From a virus: a DNA stretch of 64,000 nt. Positions 63,646 to 64,000 of this stretch are shown here, in pieces. Numbering within the stretch: position 1 is the stretch's first letter; the number at the start of each line of letters is the position of its first letter. Location of the stretch: the IMG/VR virus record IMGVR_UViG_3300012980_000004, positions 1 to 64,000 of that record, one strand, 5' to 3'. A program made the position numbers and the translations under genes. The notes beneath the pieces are model-generated. The model saw nothing but the letters and a program-made list of their open reading frames with translations. It had not been told where the DNA came from and did no database searches.

Positions 63646-64000
63646 ATGGACAAACTGTATATTGTGACACGATCTGATATGTCGCCTGGCTATCAGGGAG
63701 TGCAATCAATTCACGCAGCCATTCAATTTGGGGTGGAACATCCAGAGATTCACAAACTCTGGTTCGAATCCTCGAATTATTTGGCCTGGCTTGCGGCTAA
63801 AGACGAGGGTCACCTCCTCTGAATTATCAAGCAAGCTGAAGAGCAAGGATTCGCTTTCTCGCTCTTCTTCGAACCTGACCGAGACTACGAGCTCACGGCT
63901 ATTGCCCTCGAGCCCAAAGCCAAACGTCTGGTAAAAAATGTCAGACCCGCACTGCGCGAGTCGTCAGTCTCAACAAAGGAAAAAGCAAATGCCCAAATTG
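63646..64000 (+). CDS. PTH2-like peptidyl-tRNA hydrolase interrupted by an in-frame TGA (63820-63822); 3' end outside window
   Basis: MDKLYIVTRSDMSPGYQGVQSIHAAIQF...LAAKDEGHLL-TGA-IIKQAEEQGFAFSLFFEPDRDYELTAIALEP.... Family-like sequence continues in the same frame after the stop. Confidence 0.6.

What the first reader, a model, noticed from the sequence alone, without database searches (positions are those of the whole stretch)
63646..64000. In-frame TGA inside a PTH2-like peptidyl-tRNA hydrolase (and two other TGA-then-open-frame junctions)
From ATG 63646 the frame reads MDKLYIVTRSDMSPGYQGVQSIHAAIQF...AAKDEGHLL. It then hits TGA at 63820-63822. It continues in the SAME frame with IIKQAEEQGFAFSLFFEPDRDYELTAIALEP... 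to the window end. Both halves follow the PTH2 pattern (VV.R.DL..G....Q..HA ... DE..L..L...A...G ... D.G.T......T.L.IGP), so the TGA sits at a sense position. Two weaker cases exist. The AAA+ gene's TGA (57799-57801) is followed by a 128-codon in-frame ORF with no ATG before codon 75. The REC gene's TGA (60532-60534) is followed one codon later by an in-frame GTG-started ORF. The options are a pseudogene, programmed read-through or recoding of a translation factor (compare RF2 autoregulation), or local suppression. I found no canonical UCA-anticodon tRNA. Only the loop of RNA B (CATTCAA) can be redrawn as A-U-UCA-A-G, and the stem for that drawing is poor.
Basis: partly seen in the sequence, partly recalled or inferred. 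Interest (0 to 1): 0.6.

Follow-up and report, generated by a model that had tools for sequence, protein, structure and literature searches.

The report
Opal-gated phage PTH2-like gene
A giant phage keeps a UGA stop codon in the middle of its small peptidyl-tRNA-hydrolase-like gene and carries two UGA-reading tRNAs just downstream, so the enzyme is probably made only when those tRNAs override the stop; this is the UGA version of a pairing that recurs in dozens of other phages.

Summary
ATG 63646 opens a frame with TGA at 63820-63822. Only the read-through product matches Pfam PTH2 and folds as Pth2 (TM 0.77). Contigs from five sequencing runs carry the same DNA, so the TGA is not an assembly error. 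The window is the left end of a complete 393-kb phage. TGA still ends about half of the phage's genes, and no other gene shows a homology-supported in-frame TGA, so the genetic code is not changed. Among 47 distinct PTH2-like phage loci, 32 have a suppressor tRNA nearby. In 27 of these the PTH2-like frame holds in-frame stops, and the stop always matches the anticodon. Most likely the phage's opal suppressors read this TGA, so the protein depends on suppression. A tolerated nonsense mutation remains possible. The AAA+ and REC junctions are ordinary stop-start gene boundaries. I found no paper describing this pairing. This scan has found the same module before on other DNA; the present case is its rarer opal, mid-gene form. 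Nothing here is experimental.

The parts
63646..63819 (+). PTH2-like gene, codons 1-58 (start ATG 63646, 4 nt after the stop of the upstream gene)
   Evidence: 21 of 22 highly conserved family columns are kept
63820..63822 (+). In-frame opal codon (codon 59), followed by A (UGA-A)
   Evidence: It aligns to a variable, helix-surface column (R most often; also Q, K, E) in homologs. It is present in contigs from five independent runs.
63823..63960 (+). PTH2-like gene, codons 60-105: second half of the domain, with the conserved EPD...TAIALEP motif
   Evidence: The coding score is 0.169 per codon in this frame and negative in the other two forward frames. No start codon is present.
63961..64000 (+). 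Start of an unconserved tail of about 49 residues. It runs on to TAA 64108-64110, outside the window, and overlaps the next gene (DUF7873, probable start ATG 63989, other frame). The remaining parts of the system lie beyond the window, on the + strand, in genome coordinates that continue the window numbering: tRNA(UCA) copy 1 at 65695-65768, tRNA(UCA) copy 2 at 66310-66384 (CCA encoded), and tmRNA at 67020-67422.
   Evidence: Tail: 0.004 per codon in the PTH2 frame, 0.099 in the neighbour's frame; independent gene call from 63989. tRNAs: ARAGORN; Rfam tRNA 60.9 and 61.6 bits; identical anticodon arm with compensatory changes in the acceptor and T stems. tmRNA: Rfam RF00023 111.9 bits.
57799..57801 (+). 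Ordinary TGA stop of the AAA+ gene (not part of the system)
60532..60534 (+). Ordinary TGA stop of the REC gene; the DUF3268 gene starts at GTG 60538 (not part of the system)

Best explanation
The TGA at 63820-63822 is a real in-frame opal codon in an otherwise intact PTH2-like (peptidyl-tRNA-hydrolase-fold) gene of a complete 393-kb phage. The phage uses the standard genetic code. It encodes two tRNA(UCA) genes 1.9 and 2.5 kb downstream on the same strand, followed by a tmRNA. Most likely these tRNAs insert an amino acid at codon 59, so that ribosomes make the full 154-residue protein (PTH2 domain in residues 1-105). Without them only a useless 58-residue fragment is made. The protein would therefore be conditional on suppressor activity. 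This is the opal, mid-gene form of a recurrent phage module: a PTH2-like gene lies directly upstream of a suppressor tRNA and carries in-frame stop(s) that match its anticodon. Shown here: the sequence, the homology and fold across the stop, the tRNA genes, the standard-code status of the genome, and the recurrence with codon-anticodon matching. Inferred: that the tRNAs are expressed and charged, that read-through occurs, which residue is inserted, and what the enzyme does.
For: (1) Only the read-through product is a PTH2 domain. Pfam gives 25.2 bits against a cut-off of 23 over residues 3-102, and the halves give nothing. Other matches are phrog_1866 at 7e-14 and a PDB profile hit to Pth2 2zv3 at 6e-7. 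The AF2 model has pLDDT 89 and pTM 0.80, with codon 59 inside helix 54-67. The Foldseek top 13 are all Pth2 structures, with TM up to 0.77.
(2) All 14 invariant family columns are kept on both sides of the stop. There is no start codon after the TGA, and this is the only PTH2 copy in the genome.
(3) The TGA is reproduced in contigs from five independent runs.
(4) Two tRNA(UCA) genes score 61 bits on the Rfam tRNA model and are 74-75 nt long, with U33 and A37. Their acceptor and T stems differ by compensatory pairs while the anticodon arm is identical.
(5) In three huge-phage genomes (two complete, one about 91% complete) the suppressor tRNA lies 7-21 kb away from the main tRNA arrays and 21 nt to 3.4 kb downstream of the PTH2-like gene.
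(6) Of 47 distinct PTH2-like loci, 32 have a suppressor tRNA in the flanks. 27 of these have in-frame stops in the PTH2-like frame, and all 27 match the anticodon (24 TAG/CUA, 2 TGA/UCA, 1 TAA/UUA). Of the 15 loci without a suppressor, 13 have none (Fisher p 5e-6).
(7) Among the conserved genes of these loci, well-supported anticodon-matched in-frame stops occur only in the PTH2-like gene.
(8) The UGA-A context has a purine after the stop, as 27 of the 32 in-frame stops printed do.
Against: After the TGA the protein keeps only 15 of 22 highly conserved columns, against 21 of 22 before it. The changes are mostly conservative, and some are shared with the P0012/P0014 subgroup. The family's usual stop, soon after the ...LALKE motif, is missing. 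The frame runs on for about 49 unconserved residues into the next gene. Both tRNAs have a weak anticodon stem (G27.A43 and U31.U39), and their minimum-energy folds are not cloverleaves. TGA ends 142 of 270 confident ORFs, so efficient suppression would extend about half of the phage's proteins. No close relative (above 60% identity) was found, so conservation of this particular TGA cannot be shown. Unlike most family members, the stop is at codon 59 and not directly after the start.
Confidence: 0.75

Rival explanations
1. The gene is a recent pseudogene or a tolerated nonsense mutation. It acquired a TGA (for example from CGA), and this persists because the gene is dispensable or because the suppressors partly mask the defect. 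There is no selected gating.
For: Conservation is weaker after the stop (15/22 against 21/22 columns). The usual stop is lost and the tail overlaps the next gene. The position differs from the N-terminal position typical of the family. R is the commonest residue in the column, so one C-to-T change would suffice.
Against: All invariant residues are kept and the fold is confidently predicted through residue 100. The coding score is highest just after the TGA. There are no frameshifts. It is the only homology-supported in-frame TGA in a 393-kb genome, and it sits in the one gene next to the UCA tRNAs. In other phages 27 of 27 in-frame stops in this family match the neighbouring anticodon, with no mismatch. 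Random decay would not give that.
Confidence: 0.15
2. The phage uses an alternative genetic code (code 4 or 25, TGA as sense), at least in part of its genome.
For: UCA suppressor tRNAs are the hallmark of TGA-recoded phages (Borges et al., 10.1101/2021.08.26.457843, read).
Against: TGA is the commonest terminator, ending 142 of 270 confident ORFs. After filtering, in-frame junctions number 8 TGA, 5 TAA and 5 TAG, in proportion to stop usage, with no clustering. Other candidates are repeat frames or antisense shadows, or have no homology. GC is 0.50. No RF-1 domain and no class-Ib synthetase were found.
Confidence: 0.03
3. The product arises without the phage tRNAs. Either basal UGA read-through by host tRNA-Trp occurs, or the 58-residue fragment is itself the functional product.
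For: UGA is the leakiest stop in bacteria (general knowledge). A purine follows the stop.
Against: The fragment lacks the conserved EPD...TAIALEP half and two of the four strands of the fold. The codon-anticodon matching across phages points to the dedicated tRNAs.
Confidence: 0.04
4. The TGA encodes selenocysteine, or it is a sequencing error.
For: ARAGORN labels the tRNAs 'tRNA-SeC' because of the anticodon.
Against: The tRNAs are 74-75 nt long with a short variable loop and a 7/5 acceptor/T arm. There is no hairpin after the TGA (z 0.05). Homologs never have Cys in that column, and the column is variable and on the surface. Identical DNA occurs in contigs from five independent runs.
Confidence: 0.01

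Closest known systems
Stop-codon-recoded phages with phage-encoded suppressor tRNAs (TAG read as Gln, TGA as Trp; Borges et al., bioRxiv 10.1101/2021.08.26.457843; Peters et al., PMC9523058)
   Same: A phage-encoded suppressor tRNA reads an in-frame stop codon in a phage gene during infection of a standard-code host. Standard-code phages that have acquired a suppressor tRNA are described there as possible precursors of recoding.
   Different: In those phages many, mostly late, genes are recoded. The reassigned stop is depleted as a terminator, and GC content is low. Here only one gene is affected, TGA is the commonest terminator (53%), and GC is 0.50. The target is a translation-related gene next to the tRNA. 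That preprint never mentions a peptidyl-tRNA hydrolase (0 occurrences).
Jumbo phages with 'orphan' suppressor tRNAs: XacN1 (two CUA per terminal repeat, PMC5852040) and Atu_ph07 (one UCA, PMC6102473)
   Same: These are standard-code jumbo phages with large tRNA sets plus suppressor tRNAs and a peptidyl-tRNA hydrolase annotation.
   Different: The XacN1 authors could not find a target gene, and the Atu_ph07 authors named none. In XacN1 and RAS14 the PTH2-like domain is the C-terminal part of an ORF of about 270 residues, far from the suppressors and without an in-frame stop. Here the target is identifiable.
prfB (RF2) autoregulation through an in-frame UGA
   Same: In both cases a translation-related gene is interrupted by UGA, and its output depends on how the termination codon is handled.
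   Different: prfB needs a +1 frameshift, is sensed by its own product, and uses an internal Shine-Dalgarno motif. Here the frame is unchanged, no stimulatory structure is seen, and bypass depends on a separate tRNA gene.
Archaeal/eukaryotic Pth2 (Pfam PF01981; PDB 3erj, 2zv3, 1q7s, 1xty)
   Same: The fold is the same (TM 0.7-0.78), and the Q..HA and ...T.(L/I)A(I/L).P motifs are recognisable.
   Different: Identity is only about 20-25%. The Lys of the G-K-x-x-A-Q motif is Tyr in the phage family, and the Asp of D-A-G aligns with Glu in E-P-D. Activity has not been tested.
Cluster C1 mycobacteriophages (Bxz1, Catera, IkeLoa ...): 'peptidyl tRNA hydrolase' followed by tRNA(CUA)
   Same: The same PTH2-like family (37% identity) lies about 250 nt upstream of a CUA tRNA inside the tRNA region, in 200+ cultured phages.
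   Different: The sequence reads ATG-TAG-GTG at the annotated GTG start, so gating is ambiguous there. There is no opal codon.

Membership tests
PTH2 peptidyl-tRNA hydrolase family (Pfam PF01981) | Sequence match to the family model above the curated threshold | tested here: met
   25.2 bits against a cut-off of 23, covering model positions 2-111 of 115, and only when the TGA is read through. The six-frame search gives 26 bits with '1 TGA' inside the match.
PTH2 peptidyl-tRNA hydrolase family (Pfam PF01981) | Pth2 alpha/beta fold | tested here: met
   AF2 pLDDT 89, pTM 0.80. Foldseek top 13 hits are all Pth2 structures; the best is 3erj_A at E 1e-7, TM 0.77.
PTH2 peptidyl-tRNA hydrolase family (Pfam PF01981) | Catalytic residues of characterised Pth2 (Lys of GKxxAQ and Asp of DAG; recalled from memory, so a lead only) | tested here: inconclusive
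   In the profile alignment to 2zv3 the Lys column is Tyr and the Asp column is Glu throughout the phage family. His23 and Gln20 are kept.
PTH2 peptidyl-tRNA hydrolase family (Pfam PF01981) | Hydrolysis of peptidyl-tRNA | not testable with these tools
   Requires an enzyme assay or complementation of pth(ts).
Nonsense-suppressor tRNA | Canonical tRNA (cloverleaf model) with an anticodon complementary to a stop codon, in a 7-nt loop with U33 and purine 37 | tested here: met
   ARAGORN anticodon tca. Rfam RF00005 at 60.9 and 61.6 bits, full length, loop UUUCAAG. Caveat: pairs 27-43 and 31-39 are mismatched in both copies.
Nonsense-suppressor tRNA | Expressed, aminoacylated, and decodes UGA in vivo | not testable with these tools
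No synthetase of class Ib is encoded.
Suppressor-tRNA-gated PTH2-like module of phages (as delimited by the survey here and by earlier notes of this scan) | PTH2-like gene directly upstream, on the same strand, of a suppressor tRNA that lies apart from the main tRNA arrays | tested here: met
   In this phage the gap is 1.7 kb, with the main array ending 10 kb earlier. The arrangement is the same in G001 and G002. 32 of 47 distinct loci have a suppressor in the flanks.
Suppressor-tRNA-gated PTH2-like module of phages (as delimited by the survey here and by earlier notes of this scan) | In-frame stop in the PTH2-like frame of the type read by the neighbouring tRNA | tested here: met
   TGA with UCA in this phage. 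27 of 27 gated loci match.
Suppressor-tRNA-gated PTH2-like module of phages (as delimited by the survey here and by earlier notes of this scan) | Stop placed right after the start (ATG, 0-4 codons, stop), with a Shine-Dalgarno motif before the ATG | tested here: not met
   25 of the 27 gated loci have this form. Here the start is a plain ATG and the stop is at codon 59. L051 (the other UCA case) has it at codon 13.
Alternative-code (TGA-recoded, code 4/25) phage | Reassigned stop rarely terminates genes, and many genes hold it in frame | tested here: not met
   TGA ends 142 of 270 confident ORFs. No excess or clustering of in-frame TGA junctions was found.
Selenoprotein / tRNA-Sec | tRNA-Sec architecture, a SECIS hairpin after UGA, and Cys in homologs | tested here: not met
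   74-75 nt, short variable loop; z 0.05; no Cys in the column
prfB-type programmed frameshift | The downstream part lies in the +1 frame | tested here: not met
   Both halves are in the same frame.

The most novel reading that the evidence does not exclude
The in-frame stop is a built-in gauge of suppression. The more strongly the phage's own suppressor tRNAs override UGA, the more full-length PTH2-like enzyme is made. Together with the adjacent tmRNA, this enzyme clears the peptidyl-tRNA and stalled-ribosome by-products of read-through, or acts on the suppressor tRNA itself as negative feedback. That would let a phage whose genes mostly end in UGA run a stop-reading tRNA at a tolerable cost. 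The suppressor tRNA, the PTH2-like gene and the tmRNA would then form one self-adjusting translational circuit.
Probability: 0.2. Interest if true: 0.85.

Novelty: new variant of a known kind. Interest (0 to 1): 0.7.

Why it matters
Suppressor tRNAs in standard-code jumbo phages have had no known target; the XacN1 authors searched for one and found none. A conserved gene that can be translated only through the matching stop codon gives these tRNAs a concrete, testable client. It shows that single-gene, tRNA-dependent gating exists outside wholesale code change. This case is informative because TGA is the phage's commonest terminator, so the depletion-first route to recoding proposed for gut phages does not apply. 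It also links three translation quality-control parts (PTH2-like enzyme, suppressor tRNA, tmRNA) in one cluster. For annotation, gene callers split or truncate these genes, and ARAGORN labels the tRNAs 'SeC' or 'Pyl'. The natural opal suppressor pair may also interest genetic-code-expansion work.

Tried and rejected
(1) Genome-wide recoding was rejected on stop usage and on three junction scans.
(2) Other in-frame TGA candidates in this genome did not hold up. 12419 and 220075 are Gly-Pro repeat frames, and 7455, 69534 and 369428 are antisense shadows. 341111 has no PHROG hit and lies opposite a real minus-strand phosphatase gene.
(3) An apparent block of in-frame TGAs at 330-337 kb of G001 turned out to be the antisense shadow of a 2,440-residue repeat gene. 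Five remaining G001 candidates gave no Pfam or PHROG hit, so it stays open whether G001 has further gated genes.
(4) The first all-against-all tblastn was swamped by antisense-frame alignments and needed a shadow filter.
Independent Logan contigs were used for the DNA instead.
(6) A pattern scan of viral contigs for more tRNAs with the UUUUCAAGU loop gave four hits, none of them a tRNA.
(7) The Terminase_6N search, meant as a recoding probe in relatives, was uninformative.
(8) The inserted amino acid could not be inferred. The TGA columns are variable. tRNA copy 2 has A20, C35 and G73, and copy 1 has A73, which fits Trp, Arg or other residues.
(9) No SECIS-like or read-through-stimulating hairpin was found.
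(10) The promoter and terminator scan gave only a strong terminator-like hairpin at 65134-65166, between the DUF7873 gene and the first tRNA. This does not settle whether they are co-transcribed.

Full report
OBSERVATION. The frame from ATG 63646 reads MDKLYIVTRSDMSPGYQGVQSIHA... and meets TGA at 63820-63822. It continues in the same frame to the window end. In the whole genome it ends at TAA 64108-64110, 154 codons in all. The read-through product matches Pfam PTH2 (PF01981) at 25.2 bits against a cut-off of 23. The match covers residues 3-102 and model positions 2-111 of 115. Neither half alone matches anything. It also matches phrog_1866 at 7e-14. A profile built from it and 14 homologs finds solved Pth2 structures, with 2zv3 at 6e-7. 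An AlphaFold2 model has pLDDT 89 and pTM 0.80 and places codon 59 inside helix 54-67. The 13 best Foldseek matches are all Pth2 structures, with TM up to 0.77. The 95 codons after the TGA hold no ATG, GTG or TTG, so the second half cannot be translated on its own.

NOT AN ERROR. The exact 58-residue N-terminal ORF is on record on 7 contigs assembled independently from public runs. The five read here come from SRR12844101, -09, -11, -13 and SRR23446369. Their DNA is 99.96-100% identical to this genome over 2.5-8.2 kb, and all carry TGA at codon 59.

THE GENOME AND THE MISSING PART. The window is bases 1-64000 of a single 393,220-bp virus record with direct terminal repeats, rated complete, at GC 0.50. 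ARAGORN finds 45 tRNAs. The main array lies at 17.9-55.4 kb, inside the window. Two tRNAs with anticodon UCA lie at 65695-65768 and 66310-66384, and a tmRNA lies at 67020-67422.

Both tRNAs match the Rfam tRNA model over its full length, at 60.9 and 61.6 bits. They are 74-75 nt long with a short variable loop, so they are not tRNA-Sec despite ARAGORN's label. The two copies are 80% identical. Their acceptor and T stems differ by compensatory pairs, while the anticodon arm is identical. That arm is unusual. Pairs 27-43 (G.A) and 31-39 (U.U) are mismatched, and the minimum-energy folds are not cloverleaves. The only other UCA suppressor in my survey (locus L051) has the same U31-[UUUCAAG]-U39 arrangement on an unrelated body. 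The UCA tRNAs are therefore additional to the Trp tRNA.

NOT A CHANGED CODE. TGA terminates 142 of 270 confident ORFs; TAA terminates 84 and TAG 44 (similar). I ran three scans for in-frame junctions with coding potential on both sides. After filtering, 8 TGA, 5 TAA and 5 TAG junctions remain, in proportion to stop usage and without clustering. A scan for mini-ORF-plus-TGA leaders found no further case. The other TGA candidates are Gly-Pro repeat frames or antisense shadows, or have no homology. The phage encodes no RF-1-domain protein and no class-Ib synthetase, and it has only this one PTH2 copy. No hairpin follows the TGA (z 0.05).

THE TWO WEAKER CASES. The AAA+ protein matches phrog_3757 almost to the end of the profile (position 362 of 367). 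Its TGA is followed at once by TTG 57802, which has a GGAGAGG motif 5 nt upstream. The extension scores weakly (0.044 per codon against 0.120 for the gene) and matches no family above threshold. The REC gene (117 residues) and the DUF3268 gene (142 residues, GTG 60538, with AAGGG 7 nt upstream) are separate complete domains. Independent annotations call them as two genes. Both junctions are ordinary stop-start boundaries.

COMPARISON WITH OTHER PHAGES. Homologs reach at most 58-59% identity and are 91-117 residues long. The column aligned with the TGA is variable: R is most frequent, followed by Q, K, N, D and E. A profile-guided scan of IMG/VR returned 50 loci, most of them from contigs of 140-480 kb. 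Together with this genome and three GenBank huge phages, that makes 47 distinct PTH2-like loci.
- 32 loci have a suppressor tRNA within the fetched flanks, nearly always 0.3-3.6 kb downstream on the same strand.
- Suppressors make up 49 of the 220 tRNAs in these neighbourhoods, and in eight loci one is the only tRNA within 12 kb.
- In 27 of the 32 loci the PTH2-like frame holds one or more in-frame stops.
- In all 27 the stop type matches the anticodon: 24 TAG/CUA, 2 TGA/UCA and 1 TAA/UUA, with no mismatch.
- Of the 15 loci without a suppressor in the flanks, 13 have a normal start and no in-frame stop. The other two have short flanks (Fisher p 5e-6).

The commonest form is a GGAG-type Shine-Dalgarno motif, then ATG, 0-4 codons, TAG, and then the conserved ...GDKLYVITR domain. 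No start codon lies between the TAG and the domain, and uninterrupted homologs have Gln at that position. Internal stops occur at six different codons. After filtering out antisense shadows, well-supported anticodon-matched in-frame stops among the conserved genes of these loci are found only in the PTH2-like gene.

I also examined two further huge-phage genomes in full.
- G001 (427 kb) has one UCA tRNA and a TGA at codon 13 of its PTH2-like gene.
- G002 (392 kb) has one CUA tRNA and two TAGs in its PTH2-like gene.
- Both keep the suppressor 7-21 kb away from their tRNA arrays and directly downstream of the PTH2-like gene.
- Both still end many confident ORFs in the 'gated' stop: 139 of 415 in G001 and 47 of 342 in G002.
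- G001 shares this phage's order: PTH2-like gene, suppressor, tmRNA.

MECHANISM. The best-supported reading is that the phage's two opal suppressors decode codon 59, so the PTH2-like protein is made only while they are active. The steps actually shown are limited to the genes, the homology and fold across the stop, the standard-code status, and the recurrence with codon-anticodon matching. Expression and charging of the tRNAs, the read-through itself, the inserted residue and the enzyme's substrate are all inferred.

The inserted residue cannot be deduced. Copy 2 has A20, C35, G73 and an encoded CCA, and copy 1 has A73. These features are compatible with Trp, Arg or other residues.

The main caveats are these:
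- The half after the TGA keeps 15 of 22 highly conserved columns, against 21 of 22 before it. The changes are mostly conservative, and some are shared with a divergent subgroup.
- The family's usual stop is missing, and an unconserved tail of about 49 residues overlaps the DUF7873 gene.
- The anticodon stems are weak.
- Efficient suppression would extend about half of the phage's proteins.

A tolerated nonsense mutation therefore stays a live rival, which I put at about 15%. Against it stand the intact invariant residues, the absence of frameshifts, the uniqueness of this TGA in the genome, and the 27-of-27 matching elsewhere.

A bolder reading treats the in-frame stop as a gauge that scales a clean-up enzyme, working with the tmRNA, to the strength of suppression, or that feeds back on the suppressor. 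It fits the gene cluster but is untested, and I put it at about 20%.

WHAT IS KNOWN. Phage suppressor tRNAs and stop-codon recoding are established (Borges et al. preprint; PMC9523058). Standard-code jumbo phages with suppressors have been reported without targets: XacN1 (PMC5852040) and Atu_ph07 (PMC6102473). In XacN1 and RAS14 the PTH2-like domain is fused at the end of a longer ORF, far from the suppressors. Cluster C1 mycobacteriophages carry the family about 250 nt upstream of a CUA tRNA, with an ambiguous ATG-TAG-GTG start.

Full-text searches combining suppressor tRNA, phage and peptidyl-tRNA hydrolase or Pth2 found no description of this pairing. The Borges preprint and Al-Shayeb et al. 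(PMC7162821) do not mention such a hydrolase.

Earlier notes of this scan describe the same module on other genomes. I reached it independently from this locus before reading them. The present case adds the rarer opal form, with the stop in mid-gene, two suppressor copies, and a genome in which the gated stop is the commonest terminator.

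Noticed in passing
genome 67020-67422 (outside window, same numbering): A phage tmRNA (tag ANDNAIRAAA) lies directly after the two suppressor tRNAs. 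The G001 phage has the same order: PTH2-like gene, UCA tRNA, tmRNA (tag ANDNASLAIAA). Several CUA-type loci have a tmRNA 1.7-3.7 kb upstream instead.
   Followed up: partly
window 19008-19076: A tRNA-Trp(CCA) with a short 3-nt D-loop, A1-U72 and G73 is missed by ARAGORN and falls below the Rfam gathering score. Rfam also reports tRNA-like hits at 49128-49185 and 49904-49986 that ARAGORN does not list.
   Followed up: partly
L009-L058 (for example L011 about 5980-6000; L045 about 5975-5990): In 25 of the 27 gated loci the PTH2-like gene begins with a Shine-Dalgarno motif, ATG, 0-4 codons, and then the stop read by the neighbouring tRNA. This is a mini-ORF leader reminiscent, from memory, of the lambda bar minigenes that burden Pth-limited cells. 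The base after the stop is a purine in every mini-ORF leader listed.
   Followed up: partly
L008 976-984 (Mycobacterium phage IkeLoa, gene 151) and about 200 cluster C1 phages: The annotated GTG start of the 'peptidyl tRNA hydrolase' is preceded in frame by ATG-TAG, and a tRNA(CUA), annotated tRNA-Pyl, lies about 250 nt downstream. It is unclear whether the gene is TAG-gated or starts at GTG.
   Followed up: partly
window 63989-64000 and on to genome 64735: The DUF7873 (PF25283) gene probably starts at ATG 63989 (AAGGA 8 nt upstream), not at ATG 63938. The read-through frame of the PTH2-like gene overlaps it by about 120 nt.
   Followed up: partly
genome 65134-65166 (outside window): A strong terminator-like hairpin (13-bp, GC-rich stem followed by a T-rich tail) lies between the DUF7873 gene and the first UCA tRNA. 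The tRNAs may therefore be transcribed separately from the PTH2-like gene.
   Followed up: no
window 12242-12682; genome 219880-220203: Long Gly-Pro-Val/Ala repeat frames (collagen-like or alternative frames of a repeat gene) mimic in-frame TGA junctions.
   Followed up: no
L108 3461-4300 (XacN1 ORF364); L109 3521-4306 (RAS14): In these cultured Xanthomonas and Stenotrophomonas jumbo phages the PTH2-like domain forms the C-terminal third of a protein of about 270 residues annotated as hypothetical. It lies away from the suppressor tRNAs.
   Followed up: partly
window 59320-61571: The neighbourhood upstream holds a D12-class methyltransferase, a stand-alone REC domain, a DUF3268 zinc-finger protein and, on the minus strand, a PLD-like (PF13091) protein.
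   Followed up: no
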